A DNA stretch of 64,000 bases, from contig NW_004797404.1 in assembly GCF_000002075.1 (NCBI RefSeq), forward strand, positions 3,356 through 67,355, given 5' to 3'. Source of the DNA: Aplysia californica (lineage: Eukaryota). Positions 5,831 to 44,376 of the stretch are shown piece by piece. The notes below the pieces were generated by a model, which saw only the letters and a list, made by a program, of their open reading frames with translations, was not told the DNA's origin and ran no database searches. A program made the translations under genes and the position numbers. How positions within the stretch are numbered: the first letter of the stretch is position 1; each line of letters opens with the position of its first letter.

Positions 5831-8800
5831 CTAAGAGCGTCTGGCTTTGCGGGCCTTCATGACATAGGCATCCACCAGCGAGCGAATCTTCTCCTGGTGC
5901 ACCACCGTCTCCTTCGAAGCTGTCACCTGACCAAACAAAGGAGACGACAAGACAATAAGTTTTAAGTAAGAGTTTCAAGGCACTTGCAACACAAATAGTT
6001 CGAACAAGAGCCGAAGATAAGAAAAGTGCTACTAGAGAGTATATACAAAGAGACGTAAGGGAGAAATAGGGACAATAGATGTTTGATGAAAAAAAAAGAG
6101 CAAACCACCTACAGTGAAAAGAAAACAGGTGATCTACTATTCTTTGAAAATTTCCAGACAGTCCATATTTCAGCAGGAAACACAACATTTTAAAATGACT
6201 CTGTGCTTCAACTTTATACCTTGCTGTAACTAAACTATTAAAAAGAAAAATAACATTTCTTGTCAAAATGAGAACAAACTTATACCCCAAAAAAAAACCC
6301 CAAAGGATGTTAATTTAGAGTAGAGAAAAGGAGACAGAGATAGGCAGAAGAGAAAAAGTGAAGAAAAAAAGAAGGTAGAATCTACCACTGGCATTCCCCA
6401 TCACCCACCTAACTTCCCACTCTCCACCAACTCCNNNNNNNNNNNNNNNNNNNNNNNNNNNNNNNNNNNNNNNNNNNNNNNNNNNNNNNNNNNNNNNNNN
6501 NNNNNNNNNNNNNNNNNNNNNNNNNNNNNNNNNNCACCCCCTCATCCTCATGACACTGACCTTCTCCACGGATCTCTTGAAGATGTCCTTGTACTCCTCC
6601 TTGCTGATCTTCTTGTTGCTCCAGGCGGCCTTGAGAGCGCTGCGCACTGCGTCCTCCACCAGCTGTTTAAAACCTTTCTTCACCTGCCCCCCACACAGAC
6701 ATAACAGTGGATGAAATACAACAGTCCATCAGACTAAGTAACAAGCTTTAGTCTAGTCTAGTCTAGTCTAGTCCAGTCCAGTCCAGTCCAGTCCAGTCCA
6801 GTCCAGTCCAGTCCAGTCCAGTCCAGTCTACTTTTATGGAACTTGCTACACAAATAGGTCATACAAATGCCCAAGATTTGAGGTGGTTACAAGTGAGTAA
6901 AATACAAAGAAAAAAAGGATGAGAGATAAAAAAGGTAGGCGTTTTTAGCAAAGAAAGAGCAAACCACACCAGAACACCCACCAACCACCCACATCACACA
7001 TTGAAGAAGCCCTTGTCGATCCAAATAACTATAAGGACAATACAAAAAAGACTCATCTCTGACAGATGTTGTGACATAACAGTAAATGTTTTCTGACCCC
7101 TTTAATGTATTTGAAGTCATTTAGAATGCTGACAGCTTCAACCCAACCTGTCAGGACCAACCCTGGCTGTGAGGGACCCAGCATCCCAGCACTGGTCATT
7201 AGTCATTGTATAGCTTTAACACCCCTTTCAACACTGTAATAACATCCCAGTAAAAACAAACATTCACTAAAATCAATTTCCCTATGTGGGAATCAAACTC
7301 AGGTGTTTTACCAGCAACAGCCTATCAATATCTCCACATGCTAAAAGTGTTACTTGGGAGAAACAGGCTTGTTGCACTAAAAAAATCAACTATGGTATGG
7401 GTTAAAGATCATACAGTCAACAACGGACAAACATGCAGCGACTCACCTCATCATGCAGGATATTGGAGGCCAGTCTGTCTGATGTGGCCACTCCCCGGAT
7501 GGCGGGCGGTGGGGAGATGCGATAGCTGGCCCGCCGGCTCACCTTCTCTTGCTTCGGGGATTTCAATCGTGTTTTACCGGCCTCATGACGCAACGCAGGA
7601 TGACTTTCAACTTTCCCTGCTGTTCCTGGCTCTAGTTTCCCACCGCCCCCCACTTCCTGTTTGAGGGTAACTCCTGGTTCTACCTTCTCCACACCTGTCA
7701 CGGGTTGTGGGTAGCGGGGGTAGCCCGGGTGGGCAGCAGGGGCAGGTGGTTGTTGGGGTGGTGGCTGATGTTGGCTGGTAGGGGGGTGGGATGGGTACGT
7801 TGAGCCCACTGCGGGTGCCGTTGGGTACATAGGGTGTCGTGTCGTAGCAGGGGCAGGTGGTGGGTAGTGACCCGAGGGCGGCCCAGGGTAATAGGGTGGG
7901 TGTTGCGACATGTGAGGGTGGGCTGCGGTGGTGCTGGCTGTAGGGGGTTGTGATGGAGGGGTGTGCCCGTAGTGTGGGGGGAAACCTGCATTGTGCGGTG
8001 TAGAGGTAGGGTGGGTGGTGGGATGGCCAGGGGGCGGGACTGGTGGGGGGAGGGTCGCGTTGTGCATTGGGTTCATGGGTCTCGGGGCCGGAGGGTAGGT
8101 AGGGTACCCAGGGTAAGGGTAGCTATGAGGACGGGTCATGGGTCTAGACCCCGGAGCCGTGGCGGGATTGTGGGGGTGGGGTGGGCCAGAGTAGTGAGGC
8201 GGTGGATACGAGGATTGTGGGTACGAAATGGCTCCTGGGTGGGCTGGGGGTCTTGCTGTGGGGTGGGGAGGCAGATGATGCTGCNNNNNNNNNNNNNNNN
8301 NNNNNNNNNNNNNNNNNNNNNNNNNNNNNNNNNNNNNNNNNNNNNNNNNNNNNNNNNNNNNNNNNNNNNNNNNNNNNNNNNNNNAAAGCACTGAGGTTGC
8401 GAAATCTACATAGAGAGGGGCAGACTTCGGTGTAGTGAGTGTGACGTCATCTCGGACAGATCCGAGGAATTCGTGGGGGCCGTCGGGGTGCTGAGTGAAC
8501 GGGGCTGGTGGCTGCTGTCGGCCACCGTGGATATGTACTGAAGGGTGGTGGGCATGGATCTCTGCAGGAGCCCCCTGTATAGGAGGGGGATGGCCCGGCC
8601 ATGGTTGCCTCTCATTAACCTTCTCCAAGTTGTCAGCAGCACTTGTGGAGCTAGCTGGGAGGTCATGATCTCTATTATAAGCATACCCGTTTGTTGATAC
8701 CTCTTCCATCCTTTCCCTCTCCTCTGCCCCTTCATCTCCACTCATCCCTGAGCTGACGTTTCCGTTACCAGAACCCTCCTCTCCTGAGCTGCTGGAAGAG

Positions 8801-11800
8801 TCTTCCTCTTCCTCCCTGTCCCTGCGAGTTCGGCTCCACTTCCCCCGCCGTCTACGTTTCTCCTCTCGGCTCTGGTGCCTATCTCCTTCATACCTCCTTC
8901 CCCGTTTCCTTTCCTCACTCCTCGACCTTGACCTACTCCTTCGTCTTTTTCCTCTGTTCCCCCTCCGCCGTTCATCCTTCTCGCTGTCCCTCCGCCGAGG
9001 CCGAGACGAGCTGCTGTCATATGACCCTGACCTTTGACTGACAGGCCGGCTATCCTGGGAATCAGAGCGTCGACGCCGCTTTTCACCATTGGGTTGAAAC
9101 TTCCGGTATTTTCTACTGTGTTTCTCCCCATGCTGCCAGGAGGGCTCCCCGCTCCACTCGTCATCTTTCTGCCAGCGACCATCTCTCCTCCCAAAGAACT
9201 CAGAGCCTCCATCCTCCTCCTCCTCTTCTTCTCCATCATAACCTTTACGTTTTCTCCCACTGCCAAATCGGAAACCCTGTTCTGAAGAGCCCGGATACCA
9301 TCTACCTCGTCCTCTACCACGGTAAAATCTCCCTCCCCCTTCCTCCTCTCTCCCATTCTCAAAATATTCCTCCCCACCAAAACCCGTAGTTCCTCTGCCT
9401 CCCCTCCCTCCACGGCCACCATAATGAAAACCTCTCCCCCTGCCCCTCCCTCCCCCTCGGGACACAACGGACGTTGACCCCTCTCCCTCCACTCCAAACT
9501 TGGGCCCGGCGGGTCCCAGGAAGTCAAGGATGCTGATCTTCTTTTTGCTCTTGTCCTCCTCTGCTTCCTGTCTATTCCTCTCTTCCTCCTCCACCTTCCT
9601 CTTTGCTTCCTCCTCCTCCTCCTTCTTCAATGTTTTCTCCTTTTTTTCATCAAAGTTATGAGTCACCAAGCTGCCCATCATGGACCCATTTACTCGTCCA
9701 TCTCGCTCTTCTTCATCAGTAACAGCACCTTCTTCTTCTTTCACAACAGGCGAGTCTTTATCAAATTTATCCTCCTGTGTCTTACCCATCTCCCCTGCAT
9801 CCCCTCCACCCCCTCCCAGTTGAACCTCTCCCTGACTCTCACTCCTCTTCCGGAAGGTTCCCCTTTCCATCTCCTCAATGTGAATCGCGTTCACGTCAAG
9901 ACCTCCACCACCCCCCTCCTCCTCCTCCTCCGCACACCCTCCTGCTGGGGGAGCCCACTCCTCCTCATCATCCACAATCTCCCCCTCCTCCTGGTCTCCC
10001 CCATCCCCTTCCTCCTCAACCGCCTCCCCAACAGATCTCACTTCTCCCTCCTCCCCACTATCACTTGCTTCCCCTTCCTCCCTCTCATAGCGGAAACCCA
10101 CCTCGCCAGTGTCGATACTTCCTGTCTCCTCATCCTCTCCACTCTCAAAACCTGCCAGATTGCCCTTTGAGCTGACCAGGTAATCTAGATTTCTCTTCAT
10201 GCGGCTGACCCGACCATGCCCTTCTACAGAGCTCATGGCATCCAGAGCTGACAGACTGGGTGCCAAGGACTGTGCAGACGAGGAAGGACCACTGGACAGT
10301 GCAGAAGAGGAAGGACCACTGTTGGAAAGACCCTGTGATGTTGATGGTTCCTCTGAGAAATCATCCACCTGCTCATTCTGAGTGTTGCGGGCACCATGCC
10401 TTTCTTCTGAGTCACCATCTGGGACTGAACTCAAATTTTGACCACCCAAACGGTCAGCACTTCCATCATCACAGAACACAGCAGAACTAGACGGGCCAGT
10501 CTCGCTTAGGTCACAACCATCGTCTGATGTTCGCTGGGCTGAAGACGACACCAAAGAATCTAGAAAACCCTCCGCCATGGTTTCACTCGCCCCACGGCTA
10601 GCTCCACCTCTCTTCTCCTCCACCATCTCATCTCCACTAGTATCCATCATCCCTTCAGTACCACCCATCGCCATCGTTGCTAACTCTTCATCAGAATCCG
10701 CTGATTTTGAAAAACTCGCCTCGGTCTCCACAGACTTCGATGAAGTGGAACTCTTTACTCGAGCCGTGCGCTTTTTGTCTCGTATTTCCCAGCTTATGGT
10801 CTTGTCAGATTTAGCTGTGACCTCAGAGGCTGAGGAGGATTTCTTGATTGGTGACTGCTTGACCTGCAGGGAGCTATCACTTCTGGCCTCAACACCGCTG
10901 GACTGTGCAGACGAGGACGGACTACTGTTGGATTGAGAACTACTTTTCGAACCTGCTGCATGTAGGGAACCTGGAGAAAAAATAAAAGTGGCTGAGTGGT
11001 TAGTGTGCTCAGGCTCACAATAATGTCAGGCATATGTCGATGACACAGCACTTTGGTGGGTGGTCAATGGGAGGGGTGTATCCTTCGTCACAACATAAAA
11101 ACCCTGACTTAGTGGTTAGGCTCTCGGACTCGCAACCGTAAGGTTGTGGGTTCGAATCCCGTCAGGGGCCCGACGTTGTGTCCTTGGGAAAGGCACTTTG
11201 CACAAATTTTCCTCACTTCACCCAGGTGGAAATGGGTACCCGGCTATAAACAGTGAAAGACTTTGTCAGTTTGATAGTGTTTGAGCGCGTGAAATCCGCA
11301 GCTTGCACTGTATGCTTCCTCAGAAGCTGAGAATGTTTCTGAGTGTTCTCAGAGGGTCTGCTGGGGTAATAATAGTTGTAAAGCGCATAGAGCATGCTCT
11401 TGAGCATGGATGTGCGCTATATAAATGCAATTATTATTATTATTATTATTAAACAAGGTGCTGCGCACGGACGACCAGCAATGATTTGTTGACTGTATTG
11501 GTGTGCCATGGTGTACTGTCACGAAACATTGATAAATTATTGCATTGTCTTGCACTATGCCTGGGATCAATGAATAGGGAATACTAAACAATTTTTGTTT
11601 TAAATACTAAGACACAAACACAGACAACACTTGCAGCTATTGCTACACCAGTCTCCCAATCTGACTTGCAACAATTTCCTAATGCAGTTGACATTTCACC
11701 CTAATAGACCAAGCATAGGTAAATTTGAAGGTGAACGTTGGGTTCCCCATCCCATAAAATGAAATATTTCAGGAAGATGAAAATGAAATGAAAAAATTGG

Positions 11801-14800
11801 ACCTATTCAGACTAAAAAAGAGCTGAAATTGTATGCCATAGACCTTTTTCATTGCCACAGTAGCACACATTTTCACACTGGTTGCTATTAGACTCTTGGG
11901 ACACAATGTCCATTTCATTCCCATCTGCATCTCAAACATCATCTCAAGCAGACAAAGTCCTCATTAAGTCTAATTGTACTAGCCTGACAAAAAAATGAGT
12001 ACAGCATTGTCTACAAGGGGGATCCAAGTCCAGTGGTTAAGACTAAGACTAAGATCCTGGGTTCTATTCCATGCACCCTTGGTTGAATACTGTGTCAATT
12101 GTTTTGGCTTTTCTGCTTATTGTCCTCAATTTATACAGCTGCTGCAAATGGGAACTTGGCTATTAGCAGCAACATATACGATAACATTTAAGTGCCTAAC
12201 ACTCTGTCACACTGTATGTCACTCAGGAATCTAAAATGACAAATTAGAAAGGCCAGAGGAAGCAAAAGGGCTACTGTCATGTTGTGAGAGCTTTCAGTTC
12301 ATATGAACACTAGACTAGAAGCAATCACATTAGCTATACTGATAAGTTGGTTCCAAAAATGGAGTCTAAATACATACAGTGGCCCAGTACCCACTGTGGA
12401 GACTTACCGTCCCTCTTGATGATGACGTGCTTACTTCCCTTGGCCAGTAGGTCCTGGTTCTGCATGATGGAGCCCAACAGGTCAAAGCACGAAGCAGATG
12501 CTGCCGGGGCAGCAGACGGGGAAGATGTTGTCGCAGATGAGGAGGATTGTGCTACTGGGGGTTGCGGAACCACAATTTTCCTGTGCAGAGTGAACAAACC
12601 TGTTGGCATTTTGTCTCTAAAATAAAAGCATTGATAGTAGACTACAAGATGATTCACTATAGTTCAGAGTGTTTTGAGTAAAGAGGTTTTGTTTTTTTTA
12701 GTAAGAATTTTACAGCGCTCGCAACTGCGTAGGGTCATATGAGCACCAAGGGGTGAATGTCATCAGAGAAGTCCAAACGGGGAATCAGGCTTACTCTGCT
12801 CACCTCTCTAGCTTCAACAGCACAAAGTCTGCTTCGACTATCAAGGCACCCCAGAAAAAGCAGTTCACAAGAGAGTGACAAATATACAAAAGAAGTAGAG
12901 GAAAAATGACGATAGTAAGGATGAGGAAAGAAAAGCAGCAGTTCCCCCTAGGTTTGTTCCAACACAGTATGAGCATGACATTGATAAATCAGCCCATTTA
13001 CAATTCTACTGTGCATAAGAACATGTTAACATCCCCCCTACAGGAATTTGAGAATACAGAAGCACATCAACACAACCATCATATAGTGCTGGGAAAAAGC
13101 AGGACAACGTATTTTCCACAGTCAAGATTTGCGACCTCTATATGGGGCTGGGGACTCCAGATTCCTAACGACAATCTGGACCGAACGGTAATCAACACCT
13201 GGATACAGGCAGATATACAACTACCGGCCCTGACCAGATGTGCTATAGACCAGACCAAAAGAGGTCGTAACATATCGGACCGCATGTGGCAAGCTGCCGC
13301 CCTCTGGAGGAGGCGGCCATAGAAAAAAAAAAAAAAAAGAAGCAAGACAGAGTAATAATAGAGGGTGAAAAAAGAAGTACTCACTCTTTTTTTTTAAATT
13401 CATGAACATCAAACAGTGTTCAACTGGTATTGCCGGTGGTTTTGATAAAAGCGTTTTGTTCAATTTTTCAAACAGAAGTTCTTTTACATTCAACATATGT
13501 CATTCACTAAAAACAGTATCAGAGCAGCTGTACTATAATTAATGTGAATGGTATCATTTTAGTGGCTCAAACAGGAGTGAACCTTCTTGTAAAGCCCATA
13601 CTTTGCTAAGAGATAATACTTCCAAACTTAAGCTCTGTTATAAAGAAGTGAGGTATGGTAATGTATTCCATGCCCTTTTCAACTGAGTGAGACCCTATCC
13701 TATGATTGAAATATTTTTTGAAAACTCCCCAAACAACCCGTTACAAGAGCATATCATTGAGGATTTCAAACAGGGTCACGTGCACCGCAGTCCATCATTT
13801 TATGAACAGATGTGGAATAATAGGAGGAAGACATAAAGACAAGGAGGGAACAATAATAACCAGAAGCATTAGCTGCAATATCGATAGGAACACACTCAGG
13901 TAAAAAGACATGCTGTTGAGAGACAGTTTGTGCCAAGTTATCACTTTCAAGGCACATTTCAACATGTACAGATAAGGATAACAGTAACAATAAGAAGAAG
14001 CTGATCAAGACACTCGGGTTAAAAACTTGTAAATGGTCAACAAGTAAGTCTATCTAATCTTGTTTTCTCTTTTTCTTATTGTACATCTGTATTCCAAGGC
14101 AACGCACTTTGCCAGTTCTAATTGCGACCAAATCCTAAGTACAGGGTGATCCAATAAAAACTGTACAACTTTTTTCCTAAATATCTCGCACAAACTTTGT
14201 ACTAGAATGTTATAATTTGAAACAGATATTATTCATTCATTTGTTTGACATAAAATTCACAAAAAATAAACTTACTTTCGAAAATGGAAAGGTTTTAATA
14301 AAAACCACCTAAAATGCAAAATGCACCAATTCGAAAGGTAAGGAAAATCATGAAATAATTGGTTGGTTCTTTCCTTTCCTTTGATTTTAAAATCTAATGT
14401 TTCCATCCCTGTAACCTTTAATCAATATTTCTTTTCTTCTCCAGATTATTTTTTTAAATTCCGGAATTCTGAGAGCAATGGTCTATATGTCCTCATTTGG
14501 ACTCGACACATTTTAACGTGTCGTTCGTAAAGTTCAGAGGTGGCCAAACACAAGGATTCATTCAACCATGAGTACTCAAAGCCATTCACACTGTACACCT
14601 TACAGTATGGAGCTGTTTCTAGAGACAATAGGAGGGGGGATGAGGTTGCCCAAGTACACAGCATTTGTGGAGTTGATATAACCTGAAAGGTGAATTTAGG
14701 CTTTGCCAAGGAACCAAATGTCATAGAGGAAATGTTCACGCTTTTCAAACAATCAAGGAATCATGAACACATTGCCATCCTCTGATAGCTTCGCAAACAG

Positions 14801-17800
14801 GGAAATGGCTTATCTACTGAGTGTAGTACCCCGGTGACGTTTAAGGGGTGCAAACGGTGTGCGTTTGGCCTGAAATGGTTGTTTTGACTAGGAATTTTTC
14901 GCTCTGATTCTCTATAGGTCCTGATGGACCATTTCCACCCATGACAACAAAAAAGTCCTTAAGGGCACTTTAACATTTTGTCCGTACCTTGTGCGAAACT
15001 TACGAAATGAGTTGGGGTGAGAAGATGTTCAATACAAAAAGCTCTCTCCTCTTTATTGATCTTAACTATGATCCCAGTAGGTAAAGGAAACTTGAGGAAA
15101 ACTATCTGCAAACTGCAGTAGTTTGCAATATAGCGCAATCGTTGGGATTTTTAGTGGTTGGCCTGATGCAAACTAGTGCGTCAAGCTACAAAAAATGAGG
15201 ACAGCTGAAAATGGGTTGATTTTTTTACGCGCTACATAGAGCAAAACTATTCTGTGGATTTATCTATAATGAATATCCGACAAATTCCTTTGGACTTCCA
15301 AATGTTGTATACAACAGTGTGAATACTTCAGTGTGAAAGAAAATATTAACCAAAAAAAGTTCTACAGGTTGTTTTGGGATCACTCTGTATATCTGAAAAA
15401 GAAAAACCACACAACTTTATTACGTCAATATACAAATAAAGTACATCTCAAATAAAAGGAAGAGTGCGGAAAAATTCTCGCATTGAGCAGTATAAAAACT
15501 CACCGCTTGGTCGGAGCAAAACTGAGTGGTTTGTGAGAGGAAAGTGCTGAGCGAGACAGCAACGCTTTGGCCGGAATGGCTGGTCGGTTGACAGGCTGCC
15601 GCTCCTCACCTTCATGTCTGGGGGAGGAATTGTTAGAGTAAAGAGTCGGTGAAGGGGGAAAAGTAAGACAATTAGATAGAAACAACAGAAGGAAAAAAAG
15701 AAATACAGCAGACTTTGTGTAACACAAACCATGCAATACGAAATTCGGGTCAATGCAAACGATTTCAGATCCACAAATTTTTTTTCGCTCTTTATTCTAT
15801 GCACTGTAACTTTCCTTAACATGTTCAAAAATTCCCAAAGATCTGATTAGCACAAAGAGATTTTGGGCAGTTTTATCATTCTTCTCGACGCTGACACTTC
15901 CTCTTTCTTTCTTTTTTTTGCTCAGGGTAGCCTACCAATGTCAATACACGTCACACAACGCCTTTTGTTTCACAGGACAGGAAAATGAGACACTTGGAAA
16001 TGCCAACCATCCCTAATTTAAAAGGAAAAACACTTTGGTGCTGTTGTAGCTAGACACGACATACTTAAAGAGTTAGTAGTGTAGCCAAAGACATGACACA
16101 CACTTAAGGACTGTTGTGGCCAAAGACATGAAACATACATAGTTGCTGTTGCCACAAAAAAAAAACGCCACATACTCAGCAAAACAGTAGAGTTCATCCT
16201 TCCTGCCTAGGATGGAGAACGAGGACATCTTGAAGTCGGAAAACCGCCCAGCGCCACCCGGCTCCACGCGACTGGCTCCGCTGGATGTCTTTTGAAGTGG
16301 AATGGATCGTCCGGCTGGGGGACGAGACAGACCTAGCTTGTCGGCAATACGACCTTTGACACTTGTTACTGGCGGTATGCGAGCCGTCCGAACCTGTCAC
16401 GGCAAGACAAAAGAGAAAAGATAGATCAGTACAAGAAGCACATCAACGCAAAAGTGGTGATCTTGCAACACAAGGTCATATGAATATAAGTGCTGAAGAT
16501 TAGAGGTGTTAAAAGAGAGTAACAAACACAAAAAAGAAAGAGAGATAAGGACGGTAAATGCTTTACAGGAAAGAAGGAGCAAACCACATCAGAGCATCTA
16601 CCTACCACTTACAATGGTGATTTGCTTCAGGAAGGAATTTGCACCCCCTGACAGACAGCACACAGAGCTGTATGCACCATATTATTGCATTGATGTTTGA
16701 GAACAGTTAGATGTCAGAGTAATTTGTTTTTATGAGCACCATTTAGTATTGAGAAAAAGAAAGGCAGATAGAAACAACAGGAAGAAGAAAGAAGTAGGAC
16801 CTAAAGATAATGCACATTCATAGAAAAAACAAACTGTACACATCATGTGGTAAAGTCATTAGCTGAAAATAAAAAAATTTCTCAAGATTCCGTAACCTAG
16901 TCTTCATCAGGACAGCCCCTGCTCATAGTGTTGCTTCCTTACATCATTCAGCATCTGTGGTGTAAAGGTTATGCTTTCATCATTGAAAGAAAAAAACAGG
17001 AGTTTCATTCTAGAGAGGGGAAAGTATTTTATTGACTATCTCCTGTCTGTTGGGATTTTGAATCATACTCAGCCAAGGTTGGCCAAGGCATGTATTGTTG
17101 AAGAAGCCGTTTAGATGACTTACCTTTCCAAATTATGTCAACAGGAGCATAAAAACATAATAACCACCAATACTCACAGCAGCCGGTGAGCTTCCAGTTG
17201 CTGACGACCTCCTTGTTGTTTTCTTGACCTTCCTTTTCTTGCGGCCTTTTCCTTTCCTTGTAGTCTTCCTCTTTCTCTTTGTCCCTGTCTTGCTTCCTGC
17301 TGTCTTCTTCTTGGTAGTTTTCCTTTTGCGTGTGGTTTTCCTCCGTGTTTTCTTTCTTGTCGTCCTTTTGCGAGTCGTTTTGCGTCTACGTGGAGCTGCT
17401 GCCCTTGTTGTTGACGAGGAGGTGGAAGGACCTGGTTCATTGTCACCCTGAATTTTAAAATTAAAATTAAAATTAAAAGATTTTTAACGACGGCATTCGT
17501 ATCAATAAAAAAAATGCATGGACCCCAGCACTCATGCGAGTTTCAGGTTCACAGAAAAAAAACAAGCCACGAATTCAAAAACATGATGAGAGAAAATTAC
17601 ATGCTTTAAAAATGCTCAAATAACACCAATAATAAGTAGATAGTGCACACACTGAAACTCATAATAGGCGCAAACAATCAACGTTGGTGGCCATAACGAG
17701 TTACAAAACAAATGAATTTTTGTCTTAGTTTTTGTAAGTTTTAAGGCACTTGCAACAAAATAAGGTTAGATAAAGGCCAAAAACTAGAGGTGCTACTAGA

Positions 17801-20800: not shown

Positions 20801-21392
20801 CCTAACAGTGAGGCAAGAATACACGAGGTAGGATAAGATATTATACACTGCTGATATACTCCACAGGAAGAAATAAAACATACTTTCCCTTGCTTCTATG
20901 AGACAAAATATAAATGTATAGCATCACTCACACCTACGCACAATTGCACGCAGGCACACATGCACGGACGCACACAAGCATGCAGGCACCCACACATTTG
21001 TGTACTCTACAATACAAGAAGGTCAATAACCTCCCCCATCTCCCTTCCCACCCTTCAGTCCCCTTCAGACTTTTTCACACAACAATCATTCAACAGTCAC
21101 AAAATCAAACACACACACACACAAACATACACAAACAGAAACACACACATATACACATACACACAGAAACACACACACACACAAAGAAAAACACACACAC
21201 ACATAGAAAAACACACACACACAGACATACTAACCCCATGTCACATCCATCACACAGCAGTAGCCTGTCCTCTCTGTCCGCCTGACCACACACCTCACAG
21301 TACGTCGGGTCATCTTCCTCTTGCTCCTCCTCTGCCTGGCTCCGATTTTCCACAGGAATCTGAGAAAGGGACAAAGTAAAATACAAATCACA

Positions 21393-21455
<63 letters not shown>

Positions 21456-31892: not shown

Positions 31893-32659
31893 CAGTAGAA
31901 CACGGCTATAGCAGGACTTTTGGTTCCAGAGGAAAAATCTCGCTGTTGGCGAGTTCCCGCTAAAGGTAAGCAAAGAGGATTTACCCAATTAAAATAGGAA
32001 AATCCACATGATGACCTCCCTTACATATCAATAAAATTTGGTCTTTAGCTTAGACTTCCTTTTCTCGTCAATTATTATCTCAGCCTTCAATTCGAGTGGG
32101 AAGCATTTCCTTTTGACTTTGTTGGAAGCCATCTTTTCCTCGGTCTTGTTGCTTGTGCTGTCTATCGTACAGGTAGGCCTGCTGTAGAACTGGTGAGGTG
32201 GATTCGTGCATATGCCTGAGCATCAACAATAGCAATTTAATGAATCAGGAATCAGACACTACATGCTCTAATCTTCTTTTACTTTCTGGCCTAGCCTGGG
32301 GCTATGGCCTATATATGCTCTTATACAGAGCGTCTAGGCTATAGCACATCACTTTTAGAGTGGCTCACGTAACGCGTCTCTCTCTGCCGCCTACCCACCT
32401 CACTCATCACTGGACAGGCCAATCACAACGCTGCATCGCTGAGTGCCTGTTGAGAGCCCACCTTCAGCCTCCCACCCCCTTTCCCCAGCTAGAGCTTGCT
32501 TGATCTCTCGCGCTGTATCAAGTTCGGGCCTCACCTTGCCCCGTTATACCCAGGCATAGGTAATTGAGTTTACATAGAGACTAGAAGGGGGATTCTTGTA
32601 CGATCCCGCTGCAGGGATGGTCCCGCTGTAGTAGGTCCCGCTATAGTCATGTTCTACAG
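31893..32659 (-). mobile_element. Internally deleted pogo/Tigger transposon
   Basis: TA|CAGTAGAACACGGCTATAGC .. GCTATAGTCATGTTCTACAG|TA; minus-strand remnant from ATG 32132, MASNKVKRKCFPLELKAEII, resembles the CENP-B-type HTH start of pogo transposases. Confidence 0.7.
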
Positions 32660-33338
32660 TACAAAGACATTGGGTGAACACACAAACCCGCTCAGCCAAA
32701 GACATAAAAAAGAAGCATTCAGCATTCACTCATTTCACAGCCAGCCACACTCACAGAAACACAAACTTGTAGCAAAGACTCTAAGATTATACACCTTGAG
32801 AGGGTTATCTTTCACTCAGTATTAACAACATCCACTATTACGCACAGAAATAACACATGTTATGGCGAGGGAAAGTCTGCGGTACGGTAACTAAAACATA
32901 TGATTGGCAACAAAAAAAACTGAGGACAACAGCACAGACCAGAATTGGCTGGCTAGCTGAGATGTTTTTACTGGCTCCACCCCGTGCCTGAGTGACAGGA
33001 AATGGTTTACACAAACATTTCTCTACAATCACCGATTGTCGAGTAGGTAGTCTTGGTCTACAGAGACTGCCAGAACTACACGTCCAATAATGGTCACAAA
33101 CTCAGTACCTCCGTGACCTAAATTCAGGCATTGGTAACAAATTCTGAAAGTCGCTGACCTAAATTCGGAAATTGACATTATTTATGTCAATGACGCACAG
33201 CACAGCACAAAGCTCTCTCTCTCTCTCGTGACATACAGGCATCAACAACAGAGTCATACGTAATAAACAGGTCCTGTTCTCCTGGTACCTACACCACACT
33301 CCATAACATTCACCCTCTTTCATACAGATCCACCATCA

Positions 33339-36300
33339 TTATCTCGCTTGTTTCTTGGCACGCTCTCCGTTTTGCCTCACAGCCTGCGGGCCGCCACCAC
33401 CACCACCGCTGCTCTCTTTGGCTTCTTTGTTGGCCGCAGCAGGCATGCCTTCTTTGCCGCCCTGGTGAGGCCCTTTCTTTTTCTTGCCGCCCAGACTGTG
33501 ACCTTTCCTCATCTTGCCCACATATGCCTCTACCAACTGCTGAATCTTTTGCGGGTTGATGTTCCCACTCTTGCTGTGGCAGACCTGAAAGACAAGTTTG
33601 TTTGGAAAAAGAGAGAAATACATCTACACCTATAATGGGTTATGAAAAAAAAAAAGGGACATACTTAATAAACTGCACAGATTCTCCTCAACACATGACT
33701 TACAGGGCAATACCCCAACCCCTGTCCTTTAAGTCTTAATTCTAATTTTATACTTCTCCTTACTATCCTTCCATCAGAAATAACACAAAGACAGGAGACG
33801 TCTCACAGACACAAGTAAAATCTTAATTTATACCCGACTATTTTCAACTTCGGAAAACATTTGTGCTCACTAAATGTGACAAAATAGCAATGAAAATGAA
33901 TTGTGCCACGACGTGGTGGAATCAAGCGCTCATCAATTTTTGGGCATGTAAGGTTATTGGTGTCACCTTAAAGCTTGTTGAATTGAAGAGCTTTCGATGA
34001 AAGAAATACACATTTCTCCTGAATGCAAGTCAAGATATTTGTAGTGATTGAAGGGGATGGGAGTCACAGAGGTAAAATTAGCAAGAAAACAGCCACCAAA
34101 AATTGGTTAGTTACTGAGTCTGAGAGTCCATGGAAACTGATAACTTATATTTTTTATGCCTTTAATCAACATTTTGAAGTAAATTAGATGGACTAAAAAG
34201 GTATTGAGCCCCCCCCCCCCCAAATTGCCAAACCTACAGAAAATGTTTCTTCGATTTCATTATTTCTACAAGTGTCTGATTTCACCTGTGCTGCCTCACA
34301 TTTATTGTAACACAAAAATATGAGGACTAGGTCCAGATATCTTTATTTCACTTAACCCTTTCGCACTTAGCAGGCTTGGCCAGCTGTGCCCCCCCCCCCC
34401 CATCCTTAAGACAAGGGCAACAACTCCACGAAAATTGAAGGGGTACCTTACTAAAAAAAAATGGTATAAAATCGCAAACACAACCAAAAATGATGAAAAT
34501 AGTATTTTCTGAAAGGAAAATGAATGAGCTAAATTACTAGTACAACATTATAAGTGGAATAGTAGAGTATGAAATGACATGAGAGGTCTTTCTGAGATGC
34601 GTGTCTTGGATTCCGAGTCTAGATCTAGATCTCGTATACATTTCTTCAACTCACGAAGTTTCTGCCACTGACAAAAAGGTAATCCACACAAAAGAAATAC
34701 AACACATTCACAGAGATTTGAGCCTCTGGTGGAAACTTGAAAGCACCTAAAAGACTTTTCTTTGGGTGTTTTTATTTTGTTTCTGCCGTACTCATATCGG
34801 GCAGCTTTGCGCCCATGCACCCTAGAGACATGATGGCGTGTTTACAACTAAAATCTCCTCCGACTTTTGTTCCCGCTCAAAAAGTGACTCTTTGTGCTAG
34901 CGAAACAAGAAAAACACCATAGTAAACCGGAACTTTTCCTCTATAAAGATAGCTACGTGAAACTTCTGATGATAGTAAAAGTAGAAGCCTCCCACGGCAA
35001 CGAAACAAACACCCCCGTGGCGGGCGCATTCGGTCGCTATAGGGATGAGCGGGGGTCACCGGCGCAGGCGCATACGGGCGCTGTAAGTGCGAAACGGTTA
35101 AATATGATTTATAAATGATACTGTCTTTGTAAGTTATGAGGCATCACTAGATCTAGTTAGTTTTTTTTAAATAAATAAGGCATGGGAACAAGTTTGTCAC
35201 CTATAATTTTATATAGGAAAATGATTCAACTAAAGTTCCCTACAAAAATTATGCCGCATTAATAAAATGTTGTCTTGAAAAATATGTGAAATACCCATCA
35301 TGTCTATGTTTCAAATTAGGGTTAAGTCGATACCCAAGCTATGTTCAGGACCAGAGCTCAGTGAGTTGATAAAAATTTCTCAAAAAGTGCACACACTTCA
35401 GTCTGGATTTCTACCAAATGAGAGAAAAATGGGCAGTTTGCATAAGCTATGAGAAAATGTATTTTTACAGAAATCCTGGACTTACTTTTGGGACAGCTTT
35501 TCTCAATATAAGCTTGTACTGTTCTTTAGTTATTTTCTTGGAGCTGTAGAACGGCTTTATGGCCAGCTTCACTTCATCAATGACACGCTCCTGGAACTGA
35601 AGCTTCTTCATGTACTGGAAACAAAAAACACAAGAAAAGTGAGTGAAAACATAGGCACATTTCATAAACACATGCATACAATCTGGTAAAACTTTTCAAT
35701 GCAAGTAAATTTACATTTACTGTTCAGTGTCAAAGTTTCAAGACTATGTTCAACACTTTCTTAAGTCCTTGCAGGCCTTTCTTAGGTAAAAAAAAAATGT
35801 TTAAAACTGACACTTTTAATGACTTCTGACCTCCATCCATAACTTTCAGTTTGACCAAGAAAGAGACACATTCAGGGCATGATCATGCCAGGCAAAAGCA
35901 CATTCTGTAAGAATACAGCAAACACGCCATTCGTTCATAAAAACAGCACAACACAAAGCACAAAACCAAAGAATATACACCTATCCTTACCTTCTCTTTG
36001 TTGGTGAGCTCCACAGCACTGGCTGGGACATCATCATCTGGAACGTCCATCCTCCGTCGCCGTGACTGTCTGCCCTTGTCTGGACCAGACACCTGGCCTT
36101 GACCTTTGGGGGCAAGCTTCTCAATGACCTTGCTCAGAACCTTCAGGTACACAGCCGGCTGGACCAGACCTTTGCCCTGGCCAGCCTTGGAATCTCCGGC
36201 AGCAGAAGCCTTGTGGTCCGAGCGGCGCCCTCTTCGTCGCCGCTCATCTGGGGAGGAGTCCGAGTTGGGAGAGGGGAGTTCCAGTTCACAATCGTCTTCC

Positions 36301-39300
36301 CCTGGGCTCATGTCCATGTCCACCACCTCCGTGGACTCATCAGGTCCGCCTGGACCTCCTGATCGCATGCTACGGCCACCGCCCATGGACCGGCCCATCC
36401 CCATGTTGGAAGCCGAGCTGTTGGAGAGAGGGCCTTTGCCCAGAAGACCAGGGCCGCCCATTGAGTTCACAGGCATTTGGGGGGTTTTGAACGCTTGTGG
36501 GGGCTGTTGCATGCCCCGATCACCTTGCTGGGACGCTAGTTTGGCCTTCTCCAGTGCCGGCAGAAGGCTGGTGAGTTGTGCGAGGGGGGCCATGGAGGAG
36601 ATAGGCATGGAAGGTCTCATGTTAGGGTGAGTGGGGCCCCCAGAGTCCCTCTGTAAACCCTGGTGGGACATCGGAGGCATAGAGGGGGAAAAGGGCAGCC
36701 CTGGGCGAGGGGCATCCCCTGGGAACATGGGTCGAGCGTCTGGTGTAGGCAGGAGCCCTCGAGCATGGGGGCCTGTTGGCTGTCCTGGAGGAAAGCCTGC
36801 CGGCCTGTTGTTCTGATGCATCATGTTCTGAGGGGGCATGTTCCCACCGGGTCCTCCGCCCAGAGGCCAAGGGAATCGCTGGGGCCCACTGCCACCACCA
36901 CCTCCTGCCATGCCAGGGAATCTCATCATCCCTGGCATAGGTTGCTGTTGTTGCTGTTGCTGCGGAGGAGCGGGCGGGGGAGGCTGTGGCTGGAACATGT
37001 GGTTGACTAGTGGCATGTGAGGAGCAGGGGGGGCGCCCGGAAGTGGGGGAGCAAGGCCCTGAGAGGGAGGCCCACTCTCTGATAGGGCAGGACCTGGGGG
37101 AGGAGAAGGGCGCACCTCCTCGGGGGGCGGGTGGTTGGGGGGCACAGGGCCTGCGTCTTTGGGGGCTGAATTTGGTGCGGGGGCAGCAGCAGCGGGCGCA
37201 CTCACTTCGCGGTCCTCCGGCTCCTCTGTCGGATGAGCAGGGTCATAATCAGACTCATTGACAGTCTTCCGGGCACTGTCAGTCTGCCTGCGTACAGCAT
37301 CTGTGTGTTCATCTCGTGTTGGGGTTGCATCCCCATCCTCCTCTTCCTCCCGGCTTGCATCGTTGTCTGTGGGAGCTGGGTTTATTTGAATGAGGGCACT
37401 GCGGCGAGCATTTCCAGACAACTCTGGTGGGGGCGGTATGCTCTCACCATCCACAAGAGTGGTACTGTCGTCAACAGCATTAGCATGAGTGATATCTACC
37501 CTAGAAGGAGGGTCTTCTTCCTCGTCCAGATTGATGACGATTCTCTCTGGTTCAACCAAAATGACGTCGCTGGAAGCGCCCTCATCGGAACTGTCCTGGC
37601 TCTGGTAGCTGCGCCGCCCACCATGGGTTTTCTGACGCAGGCTACCACTGCTCGTGCTGGACGAAGATGAAGAGGAACTACTGCTACGGGCACGTTCATG
37701 TCTCTGGCGGCGATGAGAGCCACGGCCACTGCCTCGCTCCTCAGACTCACTGTCCTCATGTGTGCGAGCATGATGGCGCCGTCTGCGGGAACTGTCATCG
37801 CGATTTTCTTTATTGGAGCTCGCCCGCTCAGACCGTCGCCGTGGACTGCGTGACCGGGACGGAGATGCCCGACGCCTGCGCTCAGAGTCCCTCTCACGAC
37901 TGCGGTCACGATGCCTACGTTTAGATCGCTCTCTTTCCTTCTCCCGCTCCCTTTCCCGTTCTCTCTCTCGTTCTCGCTCTACAGACCTATCTCGAGACCT
38001 TGACCTATGTCTTCTATGTCGTGAGGATCTATCCCTTGACCGTGACCTCCTGACTCTCTCTGCTGACCCAGAGCGTCTCCTCCGCTCCTGAGACCTACTT
38101 CTGCTATGCCGACGCCTCCTCTCCTCCACTTCCACTCGACGACTCCTCTCTCTATCTCGGCCACTCTCCCTTTCTCTCCCAGCTTCTCTCTCCTTTTCCC
38201 GCTCTCTTTCCCGATCCCTGTGGCTCCTCTCCCTCTCCCGGTCTCCCCGAGCCCTCTCCCTCTCCCTGTCACGGGGTGTGCCATGTCGGTGTTCTTTCTC
38301 CCTGCGGACCTCGCGAGTGTCTCGACTCTCCTGCCTCCTATCCCTCGACTCCTGCCTCCTCTCCTCATGACGTCTACTGCGTCTGTGTTCCGACTCCTCC
38401 CCTCTCACCTCCTGGTTCAGGCTGCCATCAATGTGTTGGTCAAAGCTCTTCACCGAGTCCTCAGCCCCAGAGTCATGGCGCTTGCGGTAATTTTTCTCCA
38501 CCCTGTGAAAGTGCCGTTCCTCCTCCCCATGAAAAGAGTTTGGGTCTGGGTCAACATTCTCATCTATCTCCTCCCCTGCCTCATCCTGCACAAAAAAGCC
38601 GGCTAGGAAGGAGGGGAACTTTTGCGAGTCCTCATCTCCTTGACTCCCCTCCTCGATAGTGGCCACCTCTCGCCGGCTTTTCTTCTTCTTTCTCTCCTTT
38701 TTCTCTCTTTTCTTCCCTCCTTTCTTCTTGCTGCCATCAACCTCCACAATCTCCCCTGGCTCCCTCTGCTCCTCGGTGCCATGGTTAGCAGGGCCTAGGT
38801 CAAACACTTGCTCGTATGCCGACATTCTCTCCTCCTGGCTCTTGCTACGACCAAGCCCAGCCCCTTCAGTGTCCAGCTCCCCCTCTTCCCGACTCTCCAC
38901 ACTCTGCCGGTCACGTCTAATTTCCACAAACCTTTGGTCCTCTGCTTCCTTCTCCTGCTGCTTGGACAATCCTTTCTTACCCTGACCTTTTTTCAACTTT
39001 TTTCCTTTCTTTTTCAGCTTCTTTGAACCTAGTTTCTTCTTGGTTTTCTTTACTGGTTGCTCCACGTCATCCTCTATCTTCTCGGGGTCACTCTCTTCAC
39101 GGAATAAATCAACCAGTGCTTTCTCATTCCGGCTGTCAATCTCTTCCTGTCGACGCAACCTCTCTCTCTCTTCCGTGTCCACCTCCTCTAAGCGTTCGTC
39201 TCCACTTACGTTCTCCTCCATCTCCTGATCAAAACTTCTCCCCGTGAGTTTATCCTCTCCCTCTACAGATTCGCCACCCTGATCAAAGGGTTCCTTCTCC

Positions 39301-40970
39301 AAGACGAAGTCACTGTCATCAAAAGCAACATCAGGCACATCGCTGTATACCTCCTCCTCATTGTCCACCACCGAGGTCTGTGTGTTCTCATCCGTGTCCA
39401 GTGGGATGTCTTGACCCTTTTCAGGGCTGGGGCTGCCTGCTCGGCTGTCCTCCTTCTGTGCATCAGGACTGGGAACAGAGACTTCCCCCTGGTCTTCTTC
39501 CGGGCTGCAAGCCACCTCCTCCACATCTGGCCTCTCCTCTACTTCTGGGGGACTTTCCACATGCATCTCATTCCTCTGACCTTCCCCCTCCCTCTCACGC
39601 TCTTCATCCCTCTCACCTTCTTCCTCCACTCCCTCTTGGTTTTCTTCTTCCCCTTCCACTTTCCCATCCTCCTCCTCTTCCTCCTCCTCCACCGACTCCC
39701 CCTGCCCCAGGAGCAAAGACGTTTCGCTCAAGTCAGCAGTGATAGGAGACGAGCAGCCCTCAGGCATGTCAACCTGCTCGCCACCATTACTTAAATCTAC
39801 ATCCTCCTGAGACTCGCAACCTTGAGAGTCCCAGCGACCGTCTCCTTCCTCCTCTTCCTCTTTTTCTGCCCCATCACCCGTCGCCTCAGCAGCACACCCA
39901 TCATCATTATCCCCATTGTCTTCAAAGTTATTTTGATTCACATTATCTTCACCCGTTTCCTCCCCTTCTTCTTCTTGAGGTAGGTCTCCATCAGCATCCT
40001 GACCAGTTGCCTCAATGTCCTCCTCAGCCCCGTCCTCTCCACCAACATCCTCGCCATCCACATCTTTCTCCACAGAGTTGTCGACGACCTCCTCTTCTTC
40101 GTCACTGACCGTTGGCTCAGCAGGATCATAGTCAGAGACTTGTGCACTCCCCTTTCCTCCTTCCCCATCATCACACGGAGACTTGCCCCCGGCGTTGGGG
40201 CTGAACGCTTCCTCTGTGGGCTCTGATGGGTCATAGTCATCAGTGGGTTCTGACGGGTCATAGACAGACTGCTCTGGAACTTTCTCAACCCCTCGCTCTG
40301 GTACTGTGAAAGTTTTTTAAAAAAAAAATGGAAATAGCACAAACGAATAAAACTGAATTATCTATCTTTGCAAAGAATATTATAAAGATATAGTTTGTCA
40401 TACATACCTTCAAAATAAAGTAATTACTCTGGTCACTCACAAAACTAAACTCATAAAAGAATAAAACAGGCTAAATATGAGTAACACAACTGAGAAGAAC
40501 TTATACATCTACTAGACAGAATCTTTCTCCAGCTGTCACCTTACATTGTTCTGCCTCCTACTTCAAATAATTCAAATGCTAACAAATATCACATTTTATC
40601 ACTTCCCAACTGACCATAGGCATCTCATCAATATTGATTTCACGTTTGAACAAGAAATTATCAGATTTTCTAAACTCATAGAGATACTTCTTCAAAAATA
40701 CAAGTCCCAAACTCAAAGACTCCACATTTCATAATGCATATACAGTACATATGAGTTAAGTAGGCCTACAGTCCTAACCTAATCCTACATTTTCCATACC
40801 TGCATATAAGTTTTGTACAGTAAGTTTTGATTATAAATCTCGTAAACTAAAAAATGGTCCTCACCATTAGCATTTCCTGAAGGCTGCTTCATCTCTTCCT
40901 GTTTCGCTTCTAGATCAATCTCCATCCCGCCATCCTCATCCGAGGTGTCCCAGCCATACTCCATCATCAT
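33339..40970 (-). CDS. Gene A: SR-related CTD-associated factor (SCAF1/SCAF11/PHRF1 family) lacking RING/PHD, 4 coding exons, ~1597 aa
   Basis: Exons 40970-40865 ([18 protein letters not shown], donor GTGAGG, phase 1; exon acceptor at 41091), 40303-35991 (phase 1/0; ends [12 protein letters not shown]), 35614-35486 ([43 protein letters not shown]), 33584-33339 ([33 protein letters not shown]). Sum 4794 nt, in frame. The C-terminal domain is the conserved SRI-like CTD-binding domain of the family. Confidence 0.88.
34356..35097. mobile_element. piggyBac-type MITE
   Basis: TTAA|CCCTTTCGCACTTA .. TAAGTGCGAAACGG|TTAA (13/14 TIR match, TTAA TSD). Confidence 0.82.
35991..40303 (-). CDS. Gene A large exon (4313 bp): YDPxxPT repeats, acidic region, Lys tracts, RS/RE region, Pro/Gly/Met-rich region
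   Basis: ORF 35883..40073 stays open upstream to acceptor TTTCACAG at 40304; donor GTAAGG at 35990. Confidence 0.9.
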
Positions 40971-41937
40971 GAAGCACTACACACTACACACACGCGAGTG
41001 CACCAATGGCAAAGTGGTGAACACACTGTCTGGGAGGTGAATGCACACACGCGCACAACATTCACTCCTGCATGGCCTCAGCTCTTTTGTCTGTGGAGGT
41101 AAAAAAAGCATAATATTACAATATTTCTCAATGAACGGTACAAGTAACAAGAACAAGTAGTACAAGTGAGGGAAGAATAAGAAAATAAGTTCAAAACTCA
41201 GGCCTCTACATTTCATAACATACACAGTATATTCAAATACATAAAAAGTTAAAGACATAGCTTGAGCATGATAAAATCAGACAGCCTTTCTTAGTGGAAC
41301 CGGGAGCCCAGCAACTGCACTCAACATACAATGTGTGTCCTGACAAGTCTCTCTTGGTTAGATTATAAATCTACTTCCCAATAATCACATTCTAAACCAC
41401 TTAGGGGGCAGTTTGCTTCCACCCTGTCTGTAAAGGCCAACCCAAGCCTTCCCCCCCCCCCCCCCCAAAGTTATGCTTTCAAAATATGATCCTGCCATAG
41501 AGATCTAGCTTCTGTTTCTAGGGATTGGTGGAAGGTCTCTGACATTCTCTTTCCTGTAAAAGCCACCCTTTATTTGGATTTCATTACTGCTTTTTTCTAC
41601 AACTGACCTCACTACAATTTGACAAAAATATCAAAAGTTGACACTAATTTTAAGGGGATTGAAACTAACTCAAAGCAAGGAAATTTTATCCATCCCGGCC
41701 AAAAAACTGATATATCTGAAAGGTAATATTTATATCATCTCCACAACATATTTTGTTGGGGTGTTAGTATCAGAGCTGACCATACAACTTCGTAGCCTGA
41801 GATCAAACACTACATTCTCTTTCATGAGCATGAGCTGTCCCTCAGCGTTGTCAAGAGGGATTAAATGATACAAAGAAATTAGTTATTGGTCTGATTTGAA
41901 AAGTGCTATTCCTGGAAAAACAGGGAGTTTTTCACTA

Positions 41938-44149: not shown

Positions 44150-44376
44150 AACCAACCCACAAAATGACAATATGACAAGACTAAGTCTAAAATGGAACCT
44201 CCTGGTAGGAGGAAGAGAGGAAGGCCCAGATCTACCTGGGAACAAGATCTGCAGGCAGATCCAAAATGGGGCACAGCTGGCTGGAGGTGGAGAAGATCGC
44301 CCACAACAAAGACAGGTGGAGAGCCCTCGGAGCAGCCTGTACCCAATACTAGGGTGAAAGGGGCGAATAATGAAGA
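44150..44376 (+). mobile_element. RTE/RTE-X LINE 3' fragment
   Basis: LKW..PGRRKRGRPRSTW motif typical of RTE C-termini. Confidence 0.6.

What the first reader, a model, noticed from the sequence alone, without database searches (positions are those of the whole stretch)
5831..40970. PHRF1 hallmarks partitioned between two head-to-tail paralogues, with the canonical C-terminal half upstream of the N-terminal half
Seen: gene A has the canonical family C-terminus ([58 protein letters not shown]) and four YDPxxPT motifs, but no zinc fingers. Gene B has RING, PHD and the PHRF1 middle motifs, no YDPxxPT in the visible sequence, and a diverged C-terminal domain. Both end giant exon / ~125-bp exon / last exon with phase-0 introns at equivalent positions. 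Established: PHRF1 normally carries all these modules in one chain, while vertebrate SCAF1 is the finger-less form. Inference: an old tandem duplication with reciprocal loss produced a SCAF1-like architecture and a PHRF1 with an altered CTD-binding end, possibly independently of vertebrates.
Basis: partly seen in the sequence, partly recalled or inferred. Interest (0 to 1): 0.75.

Follow-up and report, generated by a model that had tools for sequence, protein, structure and literature searches.

The report
Snail PHRF1 split between two paralogues
In the sea hare and related land and freshwater snails, the parts of the transcription-linked protein PHRF1 are divided between two neighbouring genes, likely after an old duplication, and one of the two has the finger-less layout of vertebrate SCAF1, which it likely reached independently.

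Summary
The window is the Aplysia californica PHRF1 locus. Gene A (1597 aa, upstream) has no zinc fingers, four YDPxxPT motifs and the canonical SRI-type end. Gene B has RING, PHD and the middle motifs, no YDPxxPT, and a diverged end still predicted to fold as an SRI bundle. Both types occur on one contig with neighbouring accessions in six panpulmonate species. Abalone, limpet, chiton and bivalves carry all modules in one chain. The split therefore dates at least to the Aplysia-panpulmonate ancestor (about 230 My by a published clock); caenogastropods were not sampled. A keeps mollusc-specific PHRF1 motifs absent from 143 vertebrate PHRF1s, so it is most likely a convergent SCAF1-like protein; the trees were too weak to prove this and held no SCAF1. 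New lead: Physella RefSeq lists B and A as isoforms X1 and X2, so the two may share a 5' exon, with A nested in B's first intron. Functions are inferred, not tested. I found no paper on it. New variant of a known kind; interest 0.5.

The parts
40865..41090 (-). Gene A exon 1 (226 nt; ATG at 40970; N-terminal SDExxMxID motif; phase-1 donor)
   Evidence: contig length arithmetic; motif also at the N-terminus of Haliotis and chiton PHRF1
35991..40303 (-). Gene A giant exon (acidic, RS/RE-rich, Pro-rich; four YDPxx[26 protein letters not shown])
   Evidence: covered end to end by contig 29 of run X9
35486..35614 (-). Gene A 129-nt exon, canonical SRI-type domain, helices 1-2
   Evidence: PF23030 30.5 bits; up to 93% identical to heterobranch orthologues
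33339..33584 (-). Gene A last coding exon (helix 3, NGERxKKxxR tail, TAA stop)
29065..33338 (-). Probable 3' UTR of A, with AATAAA at 29085-29080 and an end near 29065
   Evidence: contigs of runs X9 and X13 both stop at 29065 where X1 and X5 go on (a weak hint)
28141..28240 (.). 100-N scaffold gap between A and B, not bridged
26203..26439 (-). Gene B first coding exon; opens with a splice acceptor, ATG at 26398, acidic tract
22963..24670 (-). Gene B RING finger exons (24670-24423, end hidden by the N gap; 23046-22963)
   Evidence: Pfam RING; RefSeq match
18875..21359 (-). Gene B PHD finger exons (21359-21235; 18963-18875)
   Evidence: Pfam PHD
12408..18117 (-). Gene B middle exons (18117-17966, 17447-17178, 16393-16176, 15617-15504, 12580-12408) with the QIARTR, basic, VKGRIA and DLLGSI..IKRDG motifs
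7447..10970 (-). Gene B giant exon (acidic, RGG, RS, Tyr/Pro/His-rich; no YDPxxPT); 100-N gap inside at 8285-8384
6561..6683 (-). Gene B 123-nt exon, diverged SRI-type domain
   Evidence: PF23030 20.5 bits; orthologues
5831..5926 (-). Gene B last coding exon (helix 3, TAG stop)
   Evidence: RefSeq end identical

Best explanation
Two neighbouring PHRF1-family genes, likely made by one tandem duplication in or before the common ancestor of Aplysia and the panpulmonate snails, carry complementary parts of the ancestral protein: upstream A lacks the fingers and keeps the canonical C-terminal domain, which likely binds the phosphorylated RNA polymerase II tail, while downstream B keeps RING and PHD with a diverged end predicted to keep the SRI fold. 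Shown: the two architectures, their linkage across species, and the single chain in outgroups. Inferred history: copy 1 lost the exons for the acidic tract, RING, PHD and middle region, joining the ancestral first exon to the ancestral giant exon. Copy 2 lost that first-exon motif, and its 3' half went through a burst of change followed by renewed constraint. Inferred function: A rides elongating polymerase II through its SRI domain and acts through RS/RE-rich disordered regions on splicing or 3'-end choice, as SCAF1 does. B keeps the ubiquitin-ligase and histone-reading roles, with a retuned or weakened CTD contact or a new partner.
For: A-type proteins without fingers: Physella, Bulinus, Arion, Candidula, Elysia and two Biomphalaria species. 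B-type proteins with the same diverged end: Physella, Bulinus, Biomphalaria, Bradybaena, Elysia, Lymnaea. Motif census: YDPxxPT in A 9/9, single-chain molluscs 8/8, vertebrate PHRF1 143/143, B 0/8. SAVEL-type in 9/9, 8/8, 0/143, 0/8. EVVDMD in 8/9, 8/8, 0/143, 0/8. DDCELEL in 9/9, 3/8, 0/143, 0/8. The N-terminal motif is in 8 of 8 A proteins, both Haliotis proteins and the chiton, and 0 of 7 B proteins. The SRI cores align without gaps over 64 columns: A-B 47%, B-B 77%, A-A 89%, with a B stem of 2.9 changes per column. B's finger region forms one starred clade among mollusc PHRF1. B's end is predicted as three helices, pLDDT 80.5; best fold match Set2 SRI 2c5z (Z 7.8, rmsd 3.2, 76 aligned), SETD2 SRI 2a7o third (Z 7.6, rmsd 2.4, 76 aligned). 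SCAF1-SRI binds pSer2/pSer5 CTD directly, and PHRF1 associates with the phospho-CTD through its SRI.
Against: The trees do not resolve where A and B attach. A+B as one clade is neither found nor rejected (p-AU 0.35); A with vertebrate PHRF1 is not rejected (0.145 and 0.49); A with gastropod single chains gives 0.30. Outside the SRI domain, A and B share no detectable similarity (global identity 0.29 against 0.23-0.27 shuffled), so the origin of B's giant exon is not shown. The fold matches are tied with unrelated helical proteins (Z 7.7 and 7.6), and Foldseek found nothing at E<=0.001. The N-terminal motif was not found in Patella or the three bivalves tested. The Elysia B model lacks the PHD match. 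No caenogastropod or nudibranch appeared among named hits, so the age is only bracketed. No function was tested.
Confidence: 0.78

Rival explanations
1. One transcription unit, two proteins. A and B share a promoter and a non-coding first exon. Splicing into A's cassette with cleavage near 29065 gives A; skipping the cassette gives B. This refines the best explanation rather than replacing it, and would explain why the order has been kept.
For: Physella RefSeq has B as XP_059145558 'isoform X1' and A as XP_059145559 'isoform X2', each alone in its cluster; that such labels imply a shared splice site is recalled, not tested. B. glabrata RefSeq puts both in one locus. Both first coding exons open with splice acceptors. 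The exon order, ancestral first exon / 3' half / finger exons / second 3' half, is what a duplication downstream of exon 1 would leave. The X9 contig stops exactly 30 nt into an upstream exon, as expected at a branch.
Against: The Aplysia RefSeq B protein carries no isoform label. That contig end could equally be an intron-retention branch, as at the contig's other end, and the X13 contig runs only about 23 nt into the upstream exon. The unsequenced gap and the repeats at 26440-28400 could hold B's own promoter. No joint from an upstream exon to 26439 was seen; the joint table was cut (378 rows not shown). Other annotations list two genes.
Confidence: 0.38
2. A and B are read as one fused 3000-aa protein, as in the B. 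glabrata RefSeq model.
For: XP_055899207 (3026 aa) holds A then B.
Against: The model joins them through about 45 residues found in no other fetched protein and replaces A's last three residues. All other annotations, including two more of B. glabrata, stop A at its conserved tail. Aplysia A ends in TAA followed by a probable 4-kb UTR.
Confidence: 0.05
3. A is an old SCAF1/SCAF11-type gene, and/or B's C-terminal half was captured from an unrelated SRI gene rather than copied from PHRF1.
For: AU tests reject none of these placements. B's giant exon has no detectable similarity to A or to single-chain PHRF1. The Atlas places an A protein beside clusters named SR splicing factor 19 at 0.90 (a lead only).
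Against: A carries mollusc-specific PHRF1 motifs absent from 143 of 143 vertebrate PHRF1s, and its core is 74% identical to mollusc single chains against 65% to vertebrates. B's domain aligns gaplessly to PHRF1 at 43-47%, with the same K|V phase-0 intron, against 13-16% to Set2/SETD2. A search of 1.84 billion representatives with B's exon gave 6 hits, all B-type. SCAF1 is described as vertebrate-only.
Confidence: 0.1
4. Scaffolding error: the halves of one PHRF1 gene, or two unlinked genes, were joined in the wrong order across the N gaps.
For: A 100-N gap lies between A and B and was not bridged by any listed contig; two more 100-N gaps lie inside B.
Against: Each gene has its own complete end. 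RefSeq B runs across its gaps. A's exons are joined in one contig by length arithmetic. Six other species show the same neighbours, one of them the same order.
Confidence: 0.02

Closest known systems
[quoted passage not shown]
   Same: Every module tested is present in the pair: RING, PHD, middle motifs, RS-rich giant exon, YDPxxPT and a PF23030/SRI end with the K|V intron.
   Different: The modules are split over two chains. B lacks YDPxxPT and the pre-SRI motifs and has a diverged domain; A lacks the fingers.
Vertebrate SCAF1 (SR-related CTD-associated factor 1)
   Same: Finger-less, mostly disordered, RS-rich protein ending in an SRI domain (SCAF1 as described in bioRxiv 10.64898/2025.12.08.691990).
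   Different: A carries mollusc-specific PHRF1 motifs and sits next to its paralogue. The preprint calls SCAF1 vertebrate-only. No SCAF1 sequence was compared here.
SCAF11
   Same: Same C-terminal family (PF23030; named as an SRI protein).
   Different: SCAF11 has a RING but no PHD (recalled). A has neither finger, B has both. No sequence compared.
Cholinergic locus (ChAT/VAChT; cha-1/unc-17) as a model for the shared-first-exon reading
   Same: Two proteins from one 5' exon, one nested in the first intron of the other (recalled; one search returned no paper describing it).
   Different: There the two proteins are unrelated; here they would be complementary paralogues. A shared exon is not shown here.

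Membership tests
PHRF1 (gene B) | N-terminal RING finger | tested here: met
   Pfam zf-RING_UBOX 26.2 bits and zf-C3HC4 21.6 bits, both above cut-off, on a partial exon
PHRF1 (gene B) | PHD finger after the RING | tested here: met
   PHD hits on both exons, profile positions 1-20 and 23-47; PF00628 on the RefSeq protein
PHRF1 (gene B) | Orthology of the finger and middle region to PHRF1 | tested here: met
   63% identity to Haliotis PHRF1 over 191 columns; one clade inside mollusc PHRF1
PHRF1 (gene B) | C-terminal SRI-type domain (PF23030) | tested here: met
   PF23030 on P0121 and 37.1 bits on P0129, but 20.9 bits, below cut-off, on P0132; three-helix model, SRI structures ranked 1 and 3 at middling Z. 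Present but diverged.
PHRF1 (gene B) | YDPxxPT motif found in all other PHRF1 tested | tested here: not met
   0 of 8 B proteins against 143 of 143 vertebrate and 8 of 8 single-chain mollusc proteins
PHRF1 (gene B) | E3 ligase activity, histone binding, phospho-CTD binding | not testable with these tools
   Needs assays. The Tyr-Lys-x3-Arg spacing of RECQL5 F938/K939/R943 (mapped by spacing, inferred) reads YKxxFK in 8 of 9 B proteins and YKxxLR in all 7 A and 5 single-chain proteins.
PHRF1 (gene A) | RING and PHD fingers | tested here: not met
   none in 27000-64000 of the window; none in the A orthologues
PHRF1 (gene A) | Canonical SRI-type end and flanking mollusc PHRF1 motifs | tested here: met
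SCAF1 (gene A) | Finger-less, RS-rich, C-terminal SRI architecture | tested here: met
   (48 RS/SR dipeptides)
SCAF1 (gene A) | Orthology to vertebrate SCAF1 | tested here: inconclusive
   No SCAF1 sequence among the fetched proteins. Motifs point to mollusc PHRF1; AU tests uninformative. Not filed as SCAF1.
SCAF1 (gene A) | Binds pSer2/pSer5 CTD and shifts polyadenylation-site use | not testable with these tools
   shown for human SCAF1 only
Shared-first-exon locus | One 5' exon spliced to either coding cassette | tested here: inconclusive
   annotation hints; no joint seen in a cut table

The most novel reading that the evidence does not exclude
One promoter makes two complementary PHRF1 paralogues. 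A SCAF1-like CTD reader, evolved independently of vertebrates, sits as a polyadenylated cassette in the first intron of the RING-PHD gene. The choice between them is itself a poly(A)-site and last-exon decision of the kind SCAF1 controls, so A could set the A:B ratio by feedback. B's remodelled SRI domain would read a different CTD mark or partner.
Probability: 0.3. Interest if true: 0.72.

Novelty: new variant of a known kind. Interest (0 to 1): 0.5.

Why it matters
It is a natural separation-of-function experiment for a poorly understood CTD reader. In most animals the ligase and chromatin-reading fingers and the CTD-binding, SR-like half travel together; here they have been apart and conserved for about 230 My or more. 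A SCAF1-like layout would have arisen twice. Human SCAF1 is reported to be vertebrate-only and needed for neuronal isoform choice, and Aplysia and Lymnaea are neurobiology models in which the parallel can be tested. B offers a conserved SRI variant for mapping CTD-mark specificity. Current annotations mislabel or fuse the genes. Duplication with domain loss is in itself common, and no function is shown, which caps the interest.

Tried and rejected
No whole genome is held for this window. Run search: no RNA holder listed on record; run kinds are guesses. Laying four runs on 24423-44300 did not bridge the 28141-28240 gap, and the joint, loose-end and piece tables were cut. Runs X9 and X13 have little or no cover in the bins 27075-27737 and 28401-29063, which I do not use as evidence. 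The upstream non-coding exon was not located: the CpG profile, the promoter-motif scan and blastn with the 5' UTR of an A-type transcript L003 gave candidates only. A metagenome pattern scan for A and B transcripts of one organism gave 5 loci: one A-type mRNA (L003), no B-type. Joining A's exon 1 to B's first exon would be in frame, but the full-length B orthologues do not begin with A's N-terminus, so I rejected it as evidence. Four of the five AU tests named different placements and none was rejected. PDB sequence search with an A protein: 0 hits. Foldseek: nothing at E<=0.001. The B model had an exon-boundary slip; that row was ignored and the model corrected. Aplysia's own A protein did not appear; the reason is unknown. 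Literature: PHRF1+mollus gave 0 papers; SCAF1+invertebrate+SRI domain gave 0; PHRF1+SCAF1+paralog gave 1 unrelated listing; searches listed nothing on this locus. The library lacks most subscription papers. Earlier scan findings: none.
Full report
What is in the window. Six-frame translation and exon building give two minus-strand genes. Gene A has four coding exons (40970-40865, 40303-35991, 35614-35486, 33584-33339) that splice into 1597 aa without a stop. Gene B has 13 coding exons from 26398 to 5831. One B exon is 100% identical to RefSeq PHRF1 of Aplysia californica (XP_005096696.2), and the corrected B model matches that protein at 96% with differences at N gaps. The window is therefore the Aplysia locus. 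Pfam places RING and PHD in B only, and the SCAF11-like C-terminal domain PF23030 in both ~125-bp exons, above cut-off for A (30.5 bits) and below it for B (20.5). No finger exon lies in or upstream of A within the window. A has YDPxxPT at 50, 59, 94 and 1055; B has none. The last two introns are phase 0 in both genes. The second is at the same codon; the first differs by two codons.

Is it an assembly artefact? No listed contig bridged the 100-N gap at 28141-28240, so the direct test failed. Synteny answers the question instead. A search with A's SRI exon gave 581 hits among 589 candidates, 120 listed. The named mollusc proteins were five finger-less ones of 1404-1512 aa (Physella, Bulinus, Arion, Candidula, Elysia) and three with fingers (two Haliotis, Patella). 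Searches with B exons returned B-type proteins from Candidula, Lymnaea, Bradybaena, Physella, Biomphalaria, Bulinus and Elysia. In 6 of 6 species where both types came from a genome annotation, they share a contig length and have neighbouring accessions: Physella XP_059145558/9, Candidula CAG5116860/1, Bulinus KAH9494767/8, B. glabrata KAI8781278/9, B. pfeifferi KAK0049618/9 and Elysia GFR80011/14. Order and orientation are shown only by the fused B. glabrata RefSeq model, which runs A then B as in the window.

Transcript hints. Run kinds are guesses. Contig 29 of run X9 is 4728 nt, covers A's giant exon end to end and leaves 159 and 256 letters outside it. The sum 30+226+4313+129+30 equals 4728, which fits the predicted splicing plus a further upstream exon; the unmapped letters were not seen. 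Contigs of X9 and X13 (two studies) stop at 29065, 15 nt past an AATAAA, where X1 and X5 go on. This is a weak hint of A's poly(A) site. An A-type mRNA from an unnamed metagenome record has the same architecture (L003).

Outgroups and age. A search with the Haliotis finger region (869 hits, 120 listed) added Pecten, Argopecten, Ylistrum, Dreissena, Potamilus and the chiton Liolophura. Eight full-length non-heterobranch proteins were scored; the Potamilus model, which lacks the middle SRI exon, and the fragment P0011 were left out. All eight keep fingers, YDPxxPT and the canonical end in one chain; Ylistrum missed my RING pattern but has a RING Pfam entry. Aplysia, Elysia and Physella are all Euthyneura. 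PMC7931591 (passages read) dates the clade that joins sea hares and panpulmonates at 230 +/- 50 My and its split from vetigastropods at about 480 My. No caenogastropod or nudibranch appeared among named hits, so the event is bracketed, not dated. Absence of a second copy in the outgroups is not proven.

Which part came from where. The motif census (9 A, 8 single-chain mollusc, 8 B and 143 vertebrate proteins; partial B records left out) shows a clean reciprocal pattern. YDPxxPT is in all groups except B. SAVEL-type, EVVDMD and the NGE..R tail are in A and molluscs but in no B and no vertebrate PHRF1. DDCELEL is in all A and in the three gastropod single chains. A's first exon carries an SDExxMxID motif that also begins Haliotis and chiton PHRF1 and is missing from 7 of 7 B proteins; Patella and three bivalves lack it too. 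In Haliotis, three YDPxxPT motifs follow directly on the last middle-region motif, just as three open A's giant exon. So A looks like the ancestral first exon joined to the ancestral 3' half, and B like the ancestral finger and middle exons joined to a remodelled 3' half. The SRI cores align without gaps: A-A 89%, B-B 77%, A-B 47%, A-molluscs 74%, A-vertebrates 65%, B-molluscs 43%. B's stem is 2.9 changes per column, which suggests a burst of change and then constraint. Against this reading, the trees cannot place A or B: p-AU is 0.35 for A+B, 0.145 and 0.49 for A with vertebrates, 0.36 for A with all single-chain molluscs and 0.30 for A with gastropods. B's giant exon shows no similarity to A beyond the shuffled level. 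No SCAF1 or SCAF11 sequence was among the fetched proteins.

How it likely works. PHRF1 is an E3 ligase with a methyl-histone-binding PHD, and it associates with the phosphorylated Rpb1 CTD through its SRI domain (PMC10403053, passages). SCAF1 has only an SRI domain, a short RS region and disorder; its SRI binds pSer2/pSer5 peptides, it shifts poly(A)-site use, and it is described as vertebrate-only (bioRxiv 10.64898/2025.12.08.691990, passages and part 1 of 2 of the Discussion; supplements not seen). A has that layout and keeps the Tyr-Lys-x3-Arg spacing whose Arg is needed for CTD binding in RECQL5 (PMC3001069, passages; the mapping is inferred from spacing). I infer that A is a polymerase-riding processing factor. 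B's end is predicted as three helices (pLDDT 80.5; the alignment held 8 B and 4 canonical rows). Set2 SRI (Z 7.8, rmsd 3.2, 76 aligned) and SETD2 SRI (Z 7.6, rmsd 2.4, 76 aligned) rank first and third of 48,161 chains, tied with unrelated helical folds. The Atlas also returns SRI-type clusters at 0.90. B has Lys at the Arg position in 8 of 9 proteins. The domain is kept and constrained, but what it binds is open.

One locus or two. Physella RefSeq names B isoform X1 and A isoform X2 on consecutive accessions, and B. glabrata RefSeq merges them into one 3026-aa model. Both first coding exons begin with acceptors. This fits a shared non-coding first exon with A nested in B's first intron, and it would explain the conserved order. 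It is not shown: the Aplysia B record has no isoform label, the gap could hide B's own start, and no such joint was seen in a cut table. I give it 0.38. The fused protein is probably a prediction error, because its linker is unique and the other annotations end A at its conserved tail.

Novelty and score. My searches found no paper on this locus (search listings only) and no earlier scan finding. The library omits most subscription papers, including the 2014 SRI-family paper cited, which I did not see. B is a PHRF1 member that has lost one family motif. A is PHRF1-derived, probably works like SCAF1, and is not filed as SCAF1. Duplication with reciprocal loss is a known kind of event; this instance is clean, old and testable. 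New variant of a known kind, interest 0.5.

Noticed in passing
window 56463-59517 (-): Broken LINE-type retrotransposon: endonuclease and reverse-transcriptase pieces in shifted frames (Pfam Exo_endo_phos, RVT_1).
   Followed up: partly
window 8385-8475 (-): About 90 nt next to the N gap in B's giant exon are in frame but absent from the RefSeq protein, which has other residues there; probably contig-end junk.
   Followed up: partly
window 50595-51009: 94-bp inverted repeats (85% identical) with CCAAT and CGCCATTT-like words flank an AAACATGGCG motif and a GTGAG donor-like site; a small element or a candidate start for the locus.
   Followed up: no
window about 52127 (+): AAAATGGCG motif in CpG-rich sequence; possible start of a divergent gene.
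   Followed up: no
window 24772-26190 and 41936-42694; many sites such as 27803-27985: Dispersed repeats: one family in B's first intron and upstream of A (74-81% identity), and a very abundant ~170-bp family in many introns.
   Followed up: no
P0121 (RefSeq B): The RefSeq protein starts at a Met in the second coding exon and omits about 105 acidic N-terminal residues that the window encodes in frame and that orthologues have.
   Followed up: partly
P0132; P0004 = L003:175-4599: More divergent B-type and A-type proteins from unnamed records show that the pair extends to a further lineage.
   Followed up: partly
L005:1-1824 (-): A finger-less fragment from an unnamed metagenome record with yet another diverged SRI-type end; unrelated to B by eye.
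   Followed up: no
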